Source: a bacterium
Lineage (GTDB): Bacteria > Patescibacteriota > Minisyncoccia > Phycocordibacterales > UBA9973
Reading direction: 5' to 3'
Assembly: GCA_037127795.1 (NCBI GenBank)
Contig: JBAXXQ010000001.1
Location: 471,198 to 513,686, forward strand
Length of the DNA stretch: 42,489 nucleotides
A program made the position numbers and the translations under genes. Below the pieces are notes generated by a model, which ran no database searches, had not been told where the DNA came from, and was given only the letters and a program-made list of their open reading frames with translations. Within the stretch, counting starts at the first letter, position 1. Each line of letters opens with the position of its first letter. Shown in pieces: positions 613-6,638 of the stretch.

Positions 613-1038
613 TTAAAACTTTCCAGTACTTCCAAACCCACCTTCTCCCCGAACAGTATCAGAAAGCTCTGCGACTTCTACAAGATCACAATCTTCAAAT
701 TTTTGAATAATCATCTGTGCGATTTTTTGCCCTTTTGCAATAGTCCGTGTCTCAGAAGACATGTTGATCATCCCTATAATAAACTCTCCGCGAAATCCTG
801 CATCGATAACACCACCCACTGTCTTGAGATTGTTATTAAAAGAAATACTAGATTTGTCCCAGACGAGCCCTACATATCCACGAGGTATCTCAAGTGCTAT
901 ACCAGTACACACTCGCAATTGTTGCCCCGGAAGAAACACTACTTCTTCAAGTGTATAAAAATCAATCCCCGCATCTCCAGGGTGCCCTTTTGTTGGCATC
1001 TTTGCTTCACTATCAAGTTTTTTTATTTTGAGTTCCAC
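613..1038 (-). CDS. dut: dUTP diphosphatase
   Basis: Motifs AGIDF, KSS, GVIDAGFRGE, IAQMII, RGEGGFGSTG of trimeric dUTPases. Confidence 0.97.
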   Translation of the reverse strand: MELKIKKLDSEAKMPTKGHPGDAGIDFYTLEEVVFLPGQQLRVCTGIALEIPRGYVGLVWDKSSISFNNNLKTVGGVIDAGFRGEFIIGMINMSSETRTIAKGQKIAQMIIQKFEDCDLVEVAELSDTVRGEGGFGSTGKF

Positions 1039-1049
1039 AGTGATTTTTA

Positions 1050-1481
1050 TTATATGTTATAAAAATGTTTTATACAAAAATCCATATCTTGAATTAAATC
1101 TATTTTTAATGCCTCTTTTGGCCCTATCCACTGAAAGTCTTTATGCTCATTATCTCGTATTTGTATGACAGGCTCTATATTCAATTTTAAAGAAAACATA
1201 TGGTAAATAAAATCATATGTTGGGTATCGTACAAAAACCTTATCAATATAAATAAATTCTTCTGGTTTTACTACAAGACCTATTTCTTCAAAAATTTCTC
1301 GAATCATTGACTGCTCGGCATTTTCTCCTGGATCTATTTTTCCAGCAGGCGCACCCCAAGTACCACCTTGTGGCTTATAGTCTTGTCTGTGTAAAAGTAA
1401 AATTTTGCCGTCATACTCAACAAAACAACTAACTACTTCAAACTTAGGATTAAAATTTTCTGGCTTTTCAAAAGAGATCAT
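1050..1481 (-). CDS. NUDIX hydrolase
   Basis: Nudix box PAGKIDPGENAEQSMIREIFEEIGL. Confidence 0.93.
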   Translation of the reverse strand: MISFEKPENFNPKFEVVSCFVEYDGKILLLHRQDYKPQGGTWGAPAGKIDPGENAEQSMIREIFEEIGLVVKPEEFIYIDKVFVRYPTYDFIYHMFSLKLNIEPVIQIRDNEHKDFQWIGPKEALKIDLIQDMDFCIKHFYNI

Positions 1482-1501: not shown

Positions 1502-1831
1502 TTAACCTATACGTAAAAAGAAAAGGAAGCCTATTAATAAAAAAAGAAGAAATCCTGAAATTATTACTGATAAGCTTATTAAACAAGCAAATAATGTTTT
1601 AATATTTGTTTTTAATTTAATAATTTTATAAAAAAAATAAAAACTAATTACTGGTACTATTACTAAAATAGTTAACCATATCAAAGATATAATTATTGAA
1701 TCTGCATTTTGATTGAAAAAATTTTTAGATATTAAAAACCAACTACCATAACATATTGGCCACCATATTAGATATACCACTCCTATAAATAATACTTTTT
1801 TCCACCATGTTGTAATTTTATTTTGCTCCAT
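1502..1831 (-). CDS. Small 3-TM membrane protein, tandem paralogue 5
   Basis: MEQNKITTWWKK N-terminus and three hydrophobic segments; homologous to neighbours. Confidence 0.85.
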   Translation of the reverse strand: MEQNKITTWWKKVLFIGVVYLIWWPICYGSWFLISKNFFNQNADSIIISLIWLTILVIVPVISFYFFYKIIKLKTNIKTLFACLISLSVIISGFLLFLLIGFLFFLRIG

Positions 1832-1901
1832 ATTATTTTAAAACTAACTTATTTCTTGTGACCTATTCATATTTTTATCTTAAGGTGTATTATAAGCTAC
1901 T

Positions 1902-2201
1902 TTACATATAGAAAAAAGAACCTAGCTCAATAAAAAGAAATAATAAAAAGAAAACTGTAATAAAATTTAAAATAAAAAGTTTTTTTAAATTTATGTTAGT
2001 TTTTTTATTTAAATAAAAAGGTAGATAATAAGCAGATCCGACTGGTAAAATAACTAAATAAAAAATCCAATAAAATAGCAGTAACCAATTTGGACTTTTT
2101 CCACTTAATAAATTAAAAGGTGATAAAAAAGTACTCAAGTAAAAAATTACGAATAATAGTAAGTAAATTTTAATTATTTCTAAAATCTTATTTTTTTTCA
2201 T
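1902..2201 (-). CDS. Small 3-TM membrane protein, divergent tandem paralogue 4
   Basis: MKKNKI start, same size and hydrophobicity pattern, conserved Pro in TM2 (ILPVGS); lacks TTWWKK. Confidence 0.75.
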   Translation of the reverse strand: MKKNKILEIIKIYLLLFVIFYLSTFLSPFNLLSGKSPNWLLLFYWIFYLVILPVGSAYYLPFYLNKKTNINLKKLFILNFITVFFLLFLFIELGSFFYM

Positions 2202-2206
2202 ATATT

Positions 2207-2530
2207 TTAACCAATCTCTGGATGCATTTGAGATAATCCTATTAAAAGTACACCTATTAACCCCAAAATTACAATAAGAGTTATTAATGTATAAAAAACT
2301 CTTTGATTTAAGTCATAAATCTTAGTAATTTTTCCACCAATCCAAAAAGCTGATATAGGACTAATTAAAATAAGTATTCCTGAAAGTATATTTAAAAAAG
2401 AATTATTAACTCCTTCTGGTTTAATCGACTGAAAAGTAAAAATACCAAAACAAATAATCCACCAAAAAATATAAATAATTAAAATAAGTAATACTTTTTT
2501 CCACCATGTTGTAATTTTATTTTGCTCCAT
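2207..2530 (-). CDS. Small 3-TM membrane protein, tandem paralogue 3
   Basis: MEQNKITTWWKK from ATG 2530 (ORF track starts at 2536); three TMs. Confidence 0.85.
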   Translation of the reverse strand: MEQNKITTWWKKVLLILIIYIFWWIICFGIFTFQSIKPEGVNNSFLNILSGILILISPISAFWIGGKITKIYDLNQRVFYTLITLIVILGLIGVLLIGLSQMHPEIG

Positions 2531-2538
2531 ATTCACTA

Positions 2539-2871
2539 TTAATAACCACTAAAGATTATAAAAATGATAGATAGGATATTAAACATAACACCTAAAAAAA
2601 TGATAAAAGAAATAATCTTATAAAAAAGTTGCTCTTTTATAAAAATCATATCTATTATTTTTTTTCCAATATAAAAACCCAAAAATGGAACAATTACAGT
2701 CGCATAAAAAATAATAATGCCTGCTACTACATGAGAATCACTGTCTGGTTTTTTAGAAAAAAAATCTTGTAAAAAGAAAAGTAATCCCCCATAAAAAATC
2801 AACCACCAAGCAATATACACCCCTCCTATAAGTAATATCTTTTTCCACCAAGTTGTAATTTTATTTTTCAT
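2539..2871 (-). CDS. Small 3-TM membrane protein, tandem paralogue 2
   Basis: MKNKITTWWKK N-terminus; three TMs. Confidence 0.85.
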   Translation of the reverse strand: MKNKITTWWKKILLIGGVYIAWWLIFYGGLLFFLQDFFSKKPDSDSHVVAGIIIFYATVIVPFLGFYIGKKIIDMIFIKEQLFYKIISFIIFLGVMFNILSIIFIIFSGY

Positions 2872-2888
2872 AATTACTATATAATTTA

Positions 2889-3212
2889 TTATACTATTTT
2901 AAAAGAAGATAAACCAACTAAAACATAGAATAACCACAAAGAGCATATTAAGTACAAAAAATGTGTAAAATAAAGTAATTTTATCTCAATTTTTGTAATT
3001 TTACTTATTTTATATGGAATTAAAAAACTTAATACAGGAATAATTCCAAAAAAATAAACAGGTGCACTATTAGATATAGTATCTGATAAATTATTTATAC
3101 TATTATTAAAATAAAAAACTGGTATTCCGTAAAAAATTACCCACCAAGTTGTATAGATACTGGTTATTAACAATGATTTTTTCCACCATGTTGTAATTTT
3201 ATTTTGCTCCAT
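2889..3212 (-). CDS. Small 3-TM membrane protein, tandem paralogue 1
   Basis: MEQNKITTWWKK N-terminus; starts 9 nt after the lipase-like gene stop. Confidence 0.85.
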   Translation of the reverse strand: MEQNKITTWWKKSLLITSIYTTWWVIFYGIPVFYFNNSINNLSDTISNSAPVYFFGIIPVLSFLIPYKISKITKIEIKLLYFTHFLYLICSLWLFYVLVGLSSFKIV

Positions 3213-3221
3213 ATATATAGT

Positions 3222-6200
3222 CTACAATATAATTAATTTTTTGATAAATTGTAATACTCGCACATACCAGGGATATTTTTTGGGTATTTCTGGTAGGGTA
3301 TTATTTTGTGAAAGTGTGTTTGTCGAAGTACTTTGTACAATCTTAGTATCTTGCACTTTTTTATGTTTTATATCACCGGTCTTTTTATCTCCTAGTACTA
3401 CCAATTTTTCTGGGATAGTACCTTGCTTTTCTTCTTTTGAAATAATAATTTCTGTTTTATCTTTTTCTACATCAATAGGTTTTATTCCACCATGGTTTTG
3501 TATTTGAGATATTATTGGAGTACTTAAAGAATCTTTTGCAAATACTGTACTATCCACCACCCCATCACCGTTTTCATCAAGCGCAACACTATAGCTAGTA
3601 TTTTGCGCACTTATATCCATATGTGCCTTCATAGACAAACTATCTATAGGGAGCTTGGTAAAATATGCACTACTAGTAACAACATCTTGAGTATCTATCT
3701 TATGTATATACATATCGTATGTACCCATATGCTCTGCAGTATTTACTATTTTGTATTGAGGGCCATCTGGTAAATATGCGTATTTTTGATCTTCAATAAT
3801 ATTGTAGGTGACATTCGGTATGCTGTACTCAATACTACCATCAGGTAGTGGGCCAGTATGATTCCCCTTATCGTCATAAATCTGTAAAGTAACAGGACTA
3901 TGATTTTCTATTGAAGTCCCAGACTGTAAACAAATATCTGGACTACTAGAAAACGAATTGTTTGTATCTATACTTTTTCCAGAAAGAATATTTACTATCG
4001 CATTTCGTATTCCTTCTACAGAAGGAAGCTCTGCATGGCTTCCTATATTTGAATAAAAATGTTGACCTTGGTTTATAAAATTTGCACTCTTGAGAGGTAC
4101 TGTTTCATCTCCTTCTACATACCCAATACTAAATGCTTCAATATATGGGAAATATGCACCTTTAGTAATATTTATATTTTGTATTGTCTTTGTACTACAC
4201 CCAGCAAAATCATACACATGGGTATTTTTGTATATAGGGGTATTATCAACCATATTATGCAAGATATCTGCGTAATTAAACATATCAGCATTTCTTCCAG
4301 AATTGATCATAAGATTTTTTGTATCTTCAATATCTAAATTAGTAGTATTTAAACTTACATAACTACCAAATTGTGCGCTTGGTAAAAGCTCATAGATAGA
4401 TGGCATATTTTGAGAAATTGATTTTATTCTTGTTTGACTCAAAATATTAATACCTAGTCCACCTATACCTAAATTATCTCCATACATAAGTGCCTTAAAT
4501 GCTTTTGGTGCACCAAGATGTGGTGTACCTACAAAAAATAAATTATCTATGTTTTGGTCCCCATATTCTGCAATATAGCGTTTTGTAATAAGTCCGCCCA
4601 TACTATGCGCAATAATATCTATACTATCATATCCAGTATCTTGCATTACTTGATCTATTTTTTGTTTCAATTTATCTGCACTTGTTTTACTATCAAAACG
4701 CCAATCGTATGGAAATACGAATAAGTCGGTATTTTCTACATACCCATCTTTATTTTTCAAATCTGCTATTAGGTAATCAAAAGTATGTGTAAATGCTGCA
4801 GATCTAATAATATCCCCTGTTACTATATGGTAACCAGGATCTTCTGTACCATCATATTTTAATGATAAAGGATTCAAAAAATGATCAAATAAATTAGTAA
4901 AAAGTTTAAACAAGCTAGGCCAAATTTCTTCATTATTATCATACGCTTTTAGAAGTTGTGTCCCAGAAATTCCTGGAATAATAATCACCGGCACACGAGA
5001 ATTTTTGGGATCGTGCCGCAAGAATGGCGCAAAATTCACTACACTTGGATCAGGCACAAAGCTATCTATGCTTGGACCATCTTTTGTCCCCCACCAGTTT
5101 TTTGAAATATCTAAACCAGGCCCTATATACAATACATTGAGATTATTTGTATCATGAATACTATTATTTTTTATTTCAGAATCTGCTGATTGATCAAAAA
5201 TACGCAATGCAAATGCTGTCGTATTATATATTTCACTATCGTGCATTTGTATAGAGACAGTACTACCTTGCTGTCCATCAGTCTCTATTCCTTGTCCGAC
5301 ATCATGTATTTTTACATGTGATACAACAAGGCTCGAGCCTGGATATATAGTAATCCCAGCATTTCCATTTTTTATTTCTGTATTGGTAATCTGTGCAGTA
5401 GAAGAATTACCAGACATGATTCCCATCCAGCTTGCTTTGTCTATATCGCTATCTTGGATATGTAACGTGCTCGCATCAAAACCACTAATACCAGTGTTTG
5501 CATTTTTTATATGGACTGTATTGAGTGAAAGATTTGTATTTGAAATACTTATTGCAGTATTAGTCGTAATATCAATACTGGTATTAGTGAAAGTAGCGAT
5601 AGTATCCGCAAGTACAATTGCATTATTGGTACTACTTACTACAGACGAGTCAATCAAATCTATATGTGATTTTGAAAATACATATATCCCAATATCGCAA
5701 TCAAGAATACTAATATTATCAATATGAAGCGTACTTGTATCTCCCAAAACCCCTGTATTTGCTCCAGATATGGCTGTGTGAGATATAGTCGCTGTACTAT
5801 CATACAGCGATACACCGCCACTATTCATATCTATATAACTAAATACCGCATCGCCACCATATACAACTATTTCATATTTATTCCCATCAAATTGCACATG
5901 ACTATCTGGATTACCTTGTATATGAATACTTCCCAAAACAAGCATATCTGCACCATCTGCAAAATATAATATTGCGCCCAGATCTATAGCTAAATCAGTA
6001 CCTTCTGACACAGTCGATCTTCCATATAGACTATAGCTCCCATCTCCACCAGTAAGTGTATTACTATCAGCAATAGTACTACCTTCTACTATTTTCCAAC
6101 CTTGTATACCTGTTTGTACAAAACTAGTACCAGTATGCACAAAACGCGTAGCGAAGGTGATTTGTGCAGGAATTTTTACAGAAGTAAAAGTAGTTTGCTG

Positions 6201-6638
6201 CACGGCGATATCTGCATCATCGGCAGATATCGCCGTGCCCGTATGCGCAAAATCTGTATACAAAAAATCTCCACTTGCTACAGTAGAGAATATAAAACCA
6301 CCCCATGCTGTATCAGGTGTTTGTGTATCAAACACAATATGATTATCTGTTGTGCCTTGTGCCACTATCGCACCATCGACCTGTATATGTGCATTTGGTA
6401 CAAATAACACCTGCACACCAGAATCTATAGTGAGCGTCGCAGTATCACCAATATCAATATTATTTTTGACAATATATGGGCTCGCATCGAGTGTCCAATG
6501 TGTATCTTGCGTAATATCACTAGAGATAGATGTATCTGCGAAACTTTTTGAGGGAGACAAAAACACGCACAAGATAATTGTGCAACATGCAAACAAAAAC
6601 CTTTTTTGTTTACGCACCATTAATCCAAGTATATACAA
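3222..6638 (-). CDS. Secreted protein: parallel beta-helix repeats + LCAT/PGAP1-like alpha/beta hydrolase (phospholipase/acyltransferase-like)
   Basis: Signal peptide (likely start ATG 6620, ...SKSFA|D), long beta-helix-like repeats, then PVIIIPGISGT, FPYDWR, IIAHSMGG (GxSxG-type nucleophile elbow), GTPHLGAP, GDETVP (Asp), SHAELP (His); amphipathic C-terminal tail. Confidence 0.85.
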   Translation of the reverse strand: MYILGLMVRKQKRFLFACCTIILCVFLSPSKSFADTSISSDITQDTHWTLDASPYIVKNNIDIGDTATLTIDSGVQVLFVPNAHIQVDGAIVAQGTTDNHIVFDTQTPDTAWGGFIFSTVASGDFLYTDFAHTGTAISADDADIAVQQTTFTSVKIPAQITFATRFVHTGTSFVQTGIQGWKIVEGSTIADSNTLTGGDGSYSLYGRSTVSEGTDLAIDLGAILYFADGADMLVLGSIHIQGNPDSHVQFDGNKYEIVVYGGDAVFSYIDMNSGGVSLYDSTATISHTAISGANTGVLGDTSTLHIDNISILDCDIGIYVFSKSHIDLIDSSVVSSTNNAIVLADTIATFTNTSIDITTNTAISISNTNLSLNTVHIKNANTGISGFDASTLHIQDSDIDKASWMGIMSGNSSTAQITNTEIKNGNAGITIYPGSSLVVSHVKIHDVGQGIETDGQQGSTVSIQMHDSEIYNTTAFALRIFDQSADSEIKNNSIHDTNNLNVLYIGPGLDISKNWWGTKDGPSIDSFVPDPSVVNFAPFLRHDPKNSRVPVIIIPGISGTQLLKAYDNNEEIWPSLFKLFTNLFDHFLNPLSLKYDGTEDPGYHIVTGDIIRSAAFTHTFDYLIADLKNKDGYVENTDLFVFPYDWRFDSKTSADKLKQKIDQVMQDTGYDSIDIIAHSMGGLITKRYIAEYGDQNIDNLFFVGTPHLGAPKAFKALMYGDNLGIGGLGINILSQTRIKSISQNMPSIYELLPSAQFGSYVSLNTTNLDIEDTKNLMINSGRNADMFNYADILHNMVDNTPIYKNTHVYDFAGCSTKTIQNINITKGAYFPYIEAFSIGYVEGDETVPLKSANFINQGQHFYSNIGSHAELPSVEGIRNAIVNILSGKSIDTNNSFSSSPDICLQSGTSIENHSPVTLQIYDDKGNHTGPLPDGSIEYSIPNVTYNIIEDQKYAYLPDGPQYKIVNTAEHMGTYDMYIHKIDTQDVVTSSAYFTKLPIDSLSMKAHMDISAQNTSYSVALDENGDGVVDSTVFAKDSLSTPIISQIQNHGGIKPIDVEKDKTEIIISKEEKQGTIPEKLVVLGDKKTGDIKHKKVQDTKIVQSTSTNTLSQNNTLPEIPKKYPWYVRVLQFIKKLIIL

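What the first reader, a model, noticed from the sequence alone, without database searches (positions are those of the whole stretch)
1502..3214. Tandem array of five 3-TM paralogues with an invariant 5' DNA block and divergent bodies
Three genes carry an identical 38-45 bp block (ATGGAGCAAAATAAAATTACAACATGGTGGAAAAA, MEQNKITTWWKK) with no synonymous changes. A fourth has a near copy and the fifth a degenerate start. The rest of each gene is strongly diverged, keeping only YxxWWxIxY/FG in TM1 and a Pro in TM2; the TM1-TM2 loop varies freely. Exact DNA identity next to this divergence suggests a recombination or gene-conversion anchor for adding or swapping cassettes. The array is visibly more AT-rich than its neighbours and sits inside a lipase to NUDIX-dut run.
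Basis: partly seen in the sequence, partly recalled or inferred. Interest (0 to 1): 0.8.

Follow-up and report, generated by a model that had tools for sequence, protein, structure and literature searches.

The report
Shuffled membrane-protein cassettes beside a lipase
Five small membrane-protein genes sit directly behind a cell-surface lipase gene in a tiny-genome (Patescibacteria) bacterium; they belong to an unnamed family that follows this lipase in many relatives, and strains swap, gain and lose them at a short DNA block shared by the gene starts.

Summary
Five tandem minus-strand genes (99-110 aa, three predicted TM helices) lie between a 1138-aa Beta_helix+LCAT lipase and NUDIX-dut. g1, g3 and g5 share a 38-44 nt identical start block; bodies are about 50% identical in DNA.

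The family has no Pfam or NCBIfam model. It lies directly downstream of this lipase in 19 of 22 loci with enough upstream DNA, in 1-5 copies.

The recombination reading is supported:
- Copy number is 1, 2 or 5 in close relatives.
- Two strains with 98-100% identical flanks carry unalignable cassette bodies, and identity returns only at each gene's 5' block.
- One relative's single gene fuses the 5' end of one paralogue to the 3' end of another.
- No body has its closest relative in its own array (0 of 35).
- Synonymous codons in the N-terminal block match far more often than in the bodies: 27/27 against 39/73 here, 84% against 58% across all multi-copy arrays.

Each cassette type is under purifying selection (dN/dS 0.13).

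Function is inferred, not shown. My best guess is lipase-specific membrane partners, most likely self-protection (immunity-like). The closest precedent is recombining T7SS immunity-gene arrays (PMC9484751). I rate it a new variant of a known kind.

The parts
3222..6638 (-). Large surface lipase. It has an N-terminal signal-like segment, a right-handed beta-helix, an LCAT/PGAP1-type alpha/beta-hydrolase domain (AHSMGG Ser, GDETVP Asp, GSHAELP His), an Ig-like region, a low-complexity linker and a basic amphipathic C-terminal helix. The likely ATG is at 6620. The stop lies 9 nt before g1.
   Evidence: Pfam LCAT 1.5e-23, Beta_helix 2.5e-18; best PDB matches are LCAT and LPLA2; catalytic motifs conserved in 7 homologues; C-terminal tails.
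2889..3212 (-). g1, 107 aa, a 3-TM cassette. Its body is type A, closest to L005a (40%) and L007b (35%), not to any window paralogue.
   Evidence: family HMM E 3e-30
2539..2871 (-). g2, 110 aa, a 3-TM cassette with a near copy of the block (MKNKITTWWKK).
   Evidence: E 2e-23
2207..2530 (-). g3, 107 aa, a 3-TM cassette (ATG at 2530; the ORF listing extends it to a GTG at 2536).
   Evidence: E 2e-23
1902..2201 (-). g4, 99 aa, a 3-TM cassette with a degenerate N-terminus (lacks TTWWKK).
   Evidence: E 5e-16
1502..1831 (-). g5, 109 aa, a 3-TM cassette.
   Evidence: E 2e-29
3177..3214 (-). 5' homology block of g1 (38 nt identical to g3 and g5; 37 nt identical to L007b in another strain).
2489..2532 (-). 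5' homology block of g3 (44 nt identical to g5; 49 nt identical to L006/L007 gene b).
1790..1833 (-). 5' homology block of g5.
2836..2871 (-). Near copy of the block in g2 (one codon shorter, 2 synonymous differences).
613..1481 (-). Right flank: NUDIX (1050-1481) and dUTPase (613-1038). dut is the conserved right anchor of the locus in all close relatives. NUDIX is replaced by a Zn_ribbon_2 gene or is absent in relatives.

Best explanation
The five ORFs are real genes of an undescribed family of about 110-aa membrane proteins. Inferred topology is N-in: a cytoplasmic N-terminus (NKITTWWKK here, FHTDKWWGK elsewhere), TM1 Y..[FW]W..FYG, an outward variable loop, TM2 with a conserved Pro, a Lys-rich inward loop, TM3, and a short outward tail. 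In Patescibacteria the family is the dedicated downstream partner of a surface-anchored Beta_helix+LCAT-type lipase and is probably co-transcribed with it. The locus is a cassette array. The bodies are old, distinct types, each kept by purifying selection. The first 38-49 nt of each gene are kept alike within an array by gene conversion. These blocks serve as the homology on which RecA-type recombination deletes, duplicates, fuses or replaces cassettes: the block of gene i is the left anchor, and the block of gene i+1 or the conserved flank is the right anchor. Shown here: family membership, lipase linkage, copy-number and content variation, breakpoints at the block, chimeric genes, excess codon identity in the block, and purifying selection within types. 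Inferred: that recombination uses the block itself. Also inferred, with lower confidence (about 0.35): the proteins act as variant-specific membrane partners that shield the producer's own membrane from the lipase, and extra copies cover other lipase variants. That reading is immunity-like.
For: Real genes: profile hits E 1e-15 to 1e-39 in about 60 loci; AF2 pLDDT 89.6 with three long helices; dN/dS 0.13 between same-type orthologues. Lipase linkage: the lipase lies directly upstream on the same strand, with 4-33 nt between its stop and the first family gene, in the window, L001, L005, L007, L010, L015, L017, L025, L028, L033, L034, L037, L039, L040, L041, L049, L050, L053 and the P0050 contig. 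That is 19 of 22 non-redundant loci with at least 1 kb upstream. Variation: 1, 2 or 5 copies at the same lipase-dut locus and 1-4 elsewhere. Cassette replacement between near-identical strains, with edges at the blocks; a second lineage shows the same. Fusion gene L010a = 5' of L005a plus 3' of an L005b-like gene. The closest relative of a body is never a same-locus paralogue, 0 of 35. Body types cross clades while N-termini follow the clade. Same-amino-acid codon identity in the block against the body: 27/27 against 39/73 for g1/g3/g5; 84% against 58% for within-locus pairs, and higher in the block in 11 of the 13 multi-copy loci including the window (lower only in L041, little different in L005); 69% against 55% for between-locus pairs. 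The 37-49 nt block is 100% identical between the window and L006/L007, although the flanking dut is only 84-85% and the lipase 76-81% identical. For the immunity-like function: the lipase keeps its catalytic Ser/Asp/His and is surface-anchored. Its cap region (aa ~727-913) is itself mosaic between strains. In the 5 genomes where both could be read, cap type i goes with body type A (window, L006/7, L005) and cap type ii lacks it (L001, L010). The closest precedent is T7SS immunity arrays, which evolve by recombination at shared blocks (PMC9484751).
Against: No recombination event was seen directly: there are no reads, and L022, the only other assembly of this strain, has the same 5 genes with 2 SNPs in 5.4 kb. 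The N-terminal peptide is a conserved protein motif family-wide, and its codons are somewhat conserved even between loci (69% against 55%). Part of the DNA identity may therefore be site-specific codon preference or an mRNA-level constraint. GC3 is not raised in the block, so there is no biased-gene-conversion signature. Function: nothing here shows toxicity or neutralisation. There is no similarity to any known immunity family and no structural match. Most loci have a single copy. The cap/cassette co-variation rests on 5 genomes (chance about 0.1). The conserved part of the protein is cytoplasmic, whereas the lipase is outside the cell.
Confidence: 0.6

Rival explanations
1. Functional rival: co-anchor or assembly subunit. 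The 3-TM proteins pair with the lipase's C-terminal helix to dock, orient or gate the enzyme in the cell membrane. Multi-copy arrays encode a heteromeric membrane complex rather than protection. This is compatible with the recombination mechanism.
For: In most lineages the lipase ends in a motif, a hydrophobic helix and a basic tail. Gaps of 4-33 nt between the lipase stop and the first family gene suggest coupled synthesis. Multi-copy arrays usually mix deep subfamilies (FW..FYG, GYWIWF...PNFF, GY.LIP...FNFGG), as subunits of a complex might. Each type is under purifying selection.
Against: In the window clade and in L034/L037 the C-terminal helix is amphipathic or absent, yet the cassettes are kept. 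A structural subunit would not be expected to be replaced by a 20-50%-identical type between strains whose flanks are 98-100% identical, nor to vary from 1 to 5 copies.
Confidence: 0.3
2. The block is identical because its nucleotides have a function in the mRNA, such as an unstructured A-rich start region for Shine-Dalgarno-less initiation or a pause site before TM1 emerges. On this view recombination is incidental.
For: No SD-like motif was seen upstream of any of 17 starts inspected, and the start regions are weakly structured. Codon choice at the motif is site-specific family-wide (Gly = GGG in 29/45 against 18% in bodies). Between-locus codon identity is 69% against 55%.
Against: Between the two NKITTWWKK clades the block's synonymous sites are as scrambled as the bodies (49% against 56%). 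Within-locus identity (84%) exceeds between-locus identity (69%). An mRNA constraint does not explain strain-to-strain cassette replacement with edges at the block or the fusion gene. No significant structure was found and there is no Rfam hit.
Confidence: 0.15
3. Recent tandem duplication followed by very fast divergence of the bodies under positive selection, with the N-terminus simply constrained and no recombination involved.
For: The arrangement is tandem, and the outward loop and TM2 have the highest dN/dS (0.25-0.27).
Against: Every body has a closer relative in another genome than in its own array (0 of 35). dN/dS is well below 1 everywhere. Strains with 100% identical flanks differ by about 50% in the bodies, which point mutation cannot produce.
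Confidence: 0.04
4. The ORFs are chance reading frames in AT-rich DNA, or the repeat is an assembly artefact.
For: GC is very low, the ORFs are short, and there is no Pfam hit.
Against: Homologues exist in dozens of independent metagenomes with E down to 1e-39. The identical array appears in an independent assembly. The structure prediction is confident, and there is purifying selection.
Confidence: 0.01

Closest known systems
Tandem immunity-gene arrays of Firmicute T7SS toxins (esaG, tipC, tsaI); Garrett et al. 2022, PMC9484751
   Same: These are strings of non-identical paralogues next to a secreted effector. Short blocks of high DNA similarity are shared by all paralogues. Recombination between the blocks accounts for loss, expansion and chimeras. 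TsaI is likewise a polytopic membrane protein.
   Different: There is no sequence or fold relationship. The phylum is different (Patescibacteria), and no T7SS was seen. There is one block only, at the 5' end. In tsaI, the single-block case, that paper found little recombination, whereas here the evidence is clear. The partner is an LCAT-type lipase whose toxicity is unproven.
Lipase toxins with downstream immunity genes (T7SS TslA, PMC10730906; T6SS Tle/Tli, from my own knowledge)
   Same: A lipase or phospholipase effector is followed directly by protective gene(s), often in several copies.
   Different: Those immunity proteins are lipoproteins or periplasmic proteins, not 3-TM proteins. Here the enzyme is a signal-peptide, C-terminally anchored surface protein, and antagonism is not shown.
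CDI/Rhs 'orphan' toxin-immunity modules (own knowledge)
   Same: A conserved junction sequence lets new variable modules recombine behind a resident conserved part, and arrays of spare modules differ between strains.
   Different: In those systems the variable unit includes a toxin C-terminus plus its immunity gene. Here the units are complete small membrane-protein genes, and the variable part of the enzyme (the cap region) lies about 1 kb upstream.
Lipase-specific foldase Lif (Pseudomonas/Burkholderia lipase operons; own knowledge)
   Same: A membrane-anchored gene lies immediately downstream of, and is dedicated to, a lipase whose core resembles family I.2 lipases.
   Different: Lif has one TM helix plus a large periplasmic helical domain and is single-copy. 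The cassettes are three TM helices with no soluble domain and give no Pfam Lipase_chap hit.
Gene families with a conserved leader and a hypervariable body (double-glycine-leader bacteriocins, conotoxins; own knowledge)
   Same: The 5' coding segment is conserved at DNA level and is joined to strongly divergent bodies, which favours recombination among paralogues.
   Different: Those are secreted peptides whose leader is cleaved. Here the conserved part is the cytoplasmic N-terminus of an integral membrane protein.

Membership tests
Recombining tandem immunity-gene arrays (esaG/tipC/tsaI type) | Tandem, non-identical paralogues directly adjacent to a gene for a secreted or surface effector | tested here: met
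   Five paralogues lie 9 nt downstream of the signal-peptide lipase. The same arrangement is seen in 19 of 22 loci.
Recombining tandem immunity-gene arrays (esaG/tipC/tsaI type) | Shared DNA homology block(s), with evidence of recombination between paralogues (copy-number change, chimeras) | tested here: met
   A 38-49 nt identical block; 1, 2 or 5 copies; fusion gene L010a; breakpoints at the block; excess codon identity.
Recombining tandem immunity-gene arrays (esaG/tipC/tsaI type) | The small protein neutralises the neighbouring toxin | not testable with these tools
   This needs expression and toxicity assays.
Recombining tandem immunity-gene arrays (esaG/tipC/tsaI type) | The effector is polymorphic and co-varies with the immunity type | tested here: inconclusive
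   The lipase cap region is mosaic. Cap type matches presence of body type A in 5 of 5 genomes, which has a chance probability of about 0.1.
Recombining tandem immunity-gene arrays (esaG/tipC/tsaI type) | Sequence membership in DUF600 (EsaG), DUF443 (TsaI), TipC or any known immunity family | tested here: not met
   No Pfam, NCBIfam or PADLOC family reaches threshold.
Recombining tandem immunity-gene arrays (esaG/tipC/tsaI type) | A dedicated secretion system (T7SS, T6SS or CDI) for the effector | tested here: inconclusive
   None was found among the roughly 20 window ORFs scanned. The lipase has a signal-like N-terminus and a C-terminal anchor instead. The rest of the 580-kb genome was not seen.
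Lipase-specific foldase (Lif) | One N-terminal TM helix plus a large extracytoplasmic helical chaperone domain; Pfam Lipase_chap | tested here: not met
   The proteins are 99-110 aa and almost entirely three TM helices, with no Pfam hit.
LCAT/PGAP1-like alpha/beta-hydrolase (the upstream enzyme) | Pfam LCAT domain with a GxSxG nucleophile and conserved Asp and His | tested here: met
   PF02450 E 1.5e-23. PDB LCAT 4xx1 aligns to aa 610-854. AHSMGG, GDETVP and H(A/G)ELP are conserved in the window and its close relatives; L015 and L017 carry variants at the same positions (GDSTVP, HGSLP, HTELP).
Integron or site-specific cassette system | An attC-like imperfect hairpin at cassette borders and an adjacent tyrosine-recombinase integrase | tested here: not met
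   There is no notable inverted repeat or structure at the block. The only integrase nearby is an rve (IS-type) ORF 5 kb away.

The most novel reading that the evidence does not exclude
The cassettes are specificity-determining membrane partners of a surface phospholipase/acyltransferase that lipid-auxotrophic Patescibacteria use on other cells' membranes. They either shield the symbiont's own, host-derived membrane or gate the enzyme. The shuffled repertoire together with the mosaic lipase cap would then define which lipase variants a cell tolerates. That would be a Patescibacteria-specific enzyme-immunity system tied to host-lipid acquisition or kin discrimination.
Probability: 0.25. Interest if true: 0.8.

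Novelty: new variant of a known kind. Interest (0 to 1): 0.6.

Why it matters
Patescibacteria (CPR) cannot make their own lipids and are thought to take them from hosts (PMC7242380, seen). How they do this without harming their own membrane is not known. This work gives a conserved two-part module with clear predictions: a large surface LCAT-type lipase plus an unannotated small membrane partner that strains shuffle. The predictions are partner-specific protection or docking, and co-variation with the lipase cap. The work also adds a clean, single-block example of cassette exchange by homologous recombination outside the Firmicute toxin-immunity systems where it was described. Finally, it defines a new protein family (about 60-100 members found) that current annotation pipelines leave as 'hypothetical'.

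Tried and rejected
- Family searches: Pfam, NCBIfam and PADLOC scans of the five proteins found nothing above threshold.
- Structure search: Foldseek of the AF2 model against PDB found nothing.
- RNA families: Rfam on the whole window found only two tRNAs.
- Collection scans: genome contigs scanned with the lipase gave no close relative, only a weak Bryobacterales hit. The first metagenome scan with NKITTWW gave nothing, and one alignment was too diverse to scan with.
- Regulatory signals: the promoter/terminator scan was at background level, with no terminator inside the array.
- RNA structure at the starts: none notable.
- GC-biased gene conversion: GC3 of the N-terminal block is not raised (0.17 against 0.16), so I dropped this idea.
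- Literature: searches for the sample series (GROS21) and for Patescibacteria+LCAT found nothing relevant.
- Rejected readings: holin (no charged C-tail, and the gene is tied to a lipase rather than a lysis cassette); Lif foldase (wrong architecture); integron-like cassettes (no attC or integrase); chance ORFs; recent duplication with fast divergence.
- Within-strain variation: I looked for it, and the only second assembly of this strain (L022) is identical in structure.
Full report
**1. What is in the window.**
The finding lies on the minus strand. Reading in the direction of transcription:
- A 1138-aa ORF (3222-6638; the likely ATG is at 6620).
- Then five small ORFs: g1 2889-3212, g2 2539-2871, g3 2207-2530, g4 1902-2201 and g5 1502-1831.
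- Gaps before each gene are 9, 17, 8, 5 and 70 nt.
- 20 nt after g5 comes NUDIX (1050-1481), and 11 nt later dUTPase (613-1038).

No terminator-like site lies inside the run, so a single operon is likely. This is an inference.

The window comes from a cellular genome. It encodes PBPs, MreB, an aminoacyl-tRNA synthetase and a MacB/HlyD pump, and it lies on a 580,599-bp contig. Named relatives of both the small proteins and the lipase come almost entirely from Patescibacteria/Parcubacteria-type MAGs.

**2.
- g1, g3 and g5 share 38 identical nucleotides starting 2 nt before the ATG; g3 and g5 share 44.
- g2 has a near copy with one codon missing and two synonymous changes.
- g4 lacks seven codons of the motif.
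- The core of the block occurs four times at 0-1 mismatch, against none expected by chance.
- Downstream, DNA identity drops to 53-67% in TM1 and 43-51% in the rest.
- Where g1, g3 and g5 share an amino acid, they use the same codon in 27 of 27 block positions and in 39 of 73 positions elsewhere.
- Two independent draws from this genome's codon usage would agree over the block with probability of about 0.004.
- The array is AT-rich (GC 0.18-0.25). The deficit is mostly at first codon positions, which reflects an Ile/Phe/Leu/Lys/Asn/Tyr-rich composition. GC3 is only slightly low.

**3. They are real genes of an undescribed family.**
Pfam, NCBIfam and PADLOC give nothing.
- A word-indexed search of 5.8 billion proteins found only five foreign relatives.
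- An exhaustive profile search found 41 proteins at E below 1e-3, all 77-156 aa.
- A broader profile and a metagenome scan added more.

The shared features are:
- an N-terminal (I)QK(L)FHTDKWWGK motif, which is NKITTWWKK in the window clade;
- TM1 with Y..FW..FYG;
- a variable loop;
- TM2 with ..P..SF.IP;
- a Lys-rich loop;
- TM3;
- a short tail (NFSGFI, PNFF or NFGGF).

AlphaFold2 with this alignment gives pLDDT 89.6 and three long helices. Foldseek finds no solved relative. The positive-inside rule places the conserved N-terminus and the Lys-rich loop in the cytoplasm, and the variable loop and tail outside. This topology is inferred from the sequences.

**4. The family is tied to the lipase.**
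The upstream protein has:
- a signal-like N-terminus;
- a right-handed beta-helix;
- an LCAT/PGAP1-type hydrolase domain with Ser (AHSMGG), Asp (GDETVP) and His conserved;
- an Ig-like region and a low-complexity linker.

In most lineages it ends with a motif, a hydrophobic helix and a basic tail. In the window clade the end is only a basic amphipathic helix.

I scanned all fetched loci with HMMs for both proteins. The lipase sits directly upstream on the same strand, 4-33 nt from its stop to the first family gene, in 19 of 22 non-redundant loci that have at least 1 kb of upstream DNA. In one locus (L020) the small gene lies just upstream of an LCAT protein. Two loci (L013, L014) show no lipase.

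The lipase family is much larger than the cassette family: 408 clusters at E below 1e-10, mostly 650-860 aa. The cassettes therefore accompany only a subset of these lipases; every linked lipase whose full length I could read is long (about 1070-1165 aa) and carries the beta-helix.

**5. The array varies among relatives.**
At the same lipase-to-dut locus:
- The window and L022 (the same strain, 2 SNPs in 5.4 kb) have five genes.
- L001, L005 and L007 have two.
- L010 and L011 have one.
- More distant lineages have one to four; L015, L039 and L047 have four.

The right border also varies: NUDIX here, a Zn_ribbon_2 gene in L001 and L007, and nothing in L005, L010 and L011.

**6. Evidence that recombination at the block does this.**
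- (a) L001 and L007 come from the same metagenome series. They are 98-100% identical over the last 1 kb of the lipase and over the Zn-ribbon and dut genes. Both cassette bodies are unalignable (36-68% identity per 50-nt window). Identity runs through ...ACATGGTGG of the first gene, reappears only at the block of the second gene, and returns fully at the end of the array.
- (b) In an unrelated lineage, L043 and L046 are 97% identical through one cassette and the first 49 nt of the next, then diverge into different types. L043, L046, L048 and L053 carry overlapping but different type combinations.
- (c) L010's single gene equals the first ~120 nt of L005a and the last ~150 nt of an L005b-like gene. 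This is what unequal recombination between paralogues would produce.
- (d) Bodies fall into types that cross genome clades: g1/L007b/L005a, L001a/L011a and L005b/L010a. The N-terminal segment follows the genome clade instead. In no case, 0 of 35, is a body's closest relative a paralogue in its own array.
- (e) The block is 100% identical over 37-49 nt between the window and L006/L007. Their dut genes are only 84-85% identical and their lipases 76-81%.
- (f) Codon identity at shared amino acids is 91% in the block against 58% in the bodies inside the close clade. Between the two NKITTWWKK clades it is 49% against 56%.
- (g) Family-wide, within-locus paralogues show 84% against 58%, and between-locus pairs 69% against 55%. 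The block exceeds the body in 11 of the 13 multi-copy loci, including the window; only L041 is lower and L005 barely differs.

Together these results are the signature of concerted evolution of the 5' end, with cassette exchange on either side of it. One block per gene is enough in a tandem array, because the next gene's block or the conserved flank supplies the second crossover.

**7. What does not fit, or limits the claim.**
- No event was observed directly.
- The N-terminal peptide is a true protein motif, and its codon choice is partly site-specific. For example, Gly is GGG in 29 of 45 cases against 18% in bodies. An mRNA-level role therefore cannot be excluded.
- GC3 is not raised in the block, so there is no sign of biased conversion.
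- Same-type orthologues show dN/dS of 0.13 overall, 0.25-0.27 in the outward loop and TM2, and 0.05-0.09 in the N-terminus, TM1 and inner loop. The diversity is therefore old types being shuffled, not rapid point-mutation diversification. The loop does not 'vary freely' within a type.

**8. Function.**
Nothing here demonstrates function. The facts to be explained are:
- tight coupling to a catalytically intact surface lipase;
- strain-level replacement by very different types;
- variable copy number;
- purifying selection within types.

The lipase is itself mosaic, with near-identical and 50-65%-identical segments alternating. Its cap region (aa ~727-913) is the most variable part. In the five genomes where both could be read, the cap type matches the presence or absence of body type A. 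This is suggestive only, with a chance probability of about 0.1.

I rank the readings as follows:
- Variant-specific self-protection (immunity-like partner): about 0.35.
- Co-anchor or assembly subunit for the lipase's C-terminal helix: about 0.30.
- The remaining probability is undefined.

**9. Comparison with what is known.**
The closest documented case is the T7SS immunity arrays esaG and tipC. There, shared homology blocks mediate recombination, gene loss and expansion. The membrane-protein array tsaI has a single block (PMC9484751). Lipase toxins with adjacent immunity genes also exist (PMC10730906).

The present system works like these at the level of locus evolution. It is not a member of any of those families (the membership tests on sequence were not met), it occurs in a different phylum, and its partner enzyme has not been shown to be toxic. 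It is not a Lif foldase and not an integron-type cassette system.

**10. Verdict.**
The finding also generalises into an unannotated lipase-partner family in Patescibacteria. Novelty: a new variant of a known kind. Interest: 0.6.

Noticed in passing
window 3222-6638 (-); L001 6590-9991; L003; L006: The lipase gene is itself a mosaic between strains. Segments of 99-100% nt identity alternate with segments of 50-65%. The most variable is the cap region between the catalytic Ser and Asp/His (aa ~727-913). The window resembles L006 there (66-96% aa) but not L001 (40-64%).
   Followed up: partly
window 3222-3300 (-) and the lipase 3' ends in L015, L017, L025, L028, L033, L039-L041, L049, L050, L053: In most lineages the lipase ends with a [T/L]A[S/T][V/A]-like motif, a ~20-aa hydrophobic helix and a basic tail. 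This looks like a sorting signal or C-terminal anchor. In the window clade only a basic amphipathic helix remains (KKYPWYVRVLQFIKKLIIL), and L034/L037 have none.
   Followed up: partly
window 1050-1481 (-): The gene at the right border of the array differs between relatives: NUDIX here, a Zn_ribbon_2 gene in L001/L007, and none in L005/L010/L011. The variable zone therefore extends beyond the cassettes.
   Followed up: partly
window 8259-9176 (+); 9915-9987 (+): An rve-family (IS-type) integrase ORF lies next to tRNA-Glu, about 5 kb from the array. Y1_Tnp (IS200-like) genes sit beside the lipase-cassette module in L015 (2954-3616) and L016 (830-1504).
   Followed up: no
17 start codons across the window (e.g. 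3212, 2871, 1481, 1038, 18901, 21249): No Shine-Dalgarno-like motif is visible upstream of any start inspected; the leaders are AT-rich. This suggests SD-independent initiation in this organism.
   Followed up: no
window 3183-3190, 2501-2508, 1802-1809 (-): The Trp-Trp codons give TGGTGG, the core of the proteobacterial Chi octamer GCTGGTGG (recalled from memory). Here the octamer is CATGGTGG. Nothing indicates that it is a hotspot in this phylum.
   Followed up: no
L007 1-210: The first 210 nt of this 2.7-kb contig encode a heptosyltransferase-like peptide fused in frame to the lipase fragment. This is probably a chimeric assembly at a strain-variable point.
   Followed up: no
L015 7273-7608 (+): The gene caller missed one family member in this locus and called a 51-aa ORF on the opposite strand instead. 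L015 therefore has four cassettes, not three, and published gene calls probably undercount this family.
   Followed up: yes
L015, L039, L047, L053 and other multi-copy loci: The family has deep subfamilies (FW..FYG with an NFSGFI or HF.IG tail; GYWIWF with a PNFF tail; GY.LIP...FNFGG). Multi-copy arrays usually contain one of each rather than several of one kind.
   Followed up: partly
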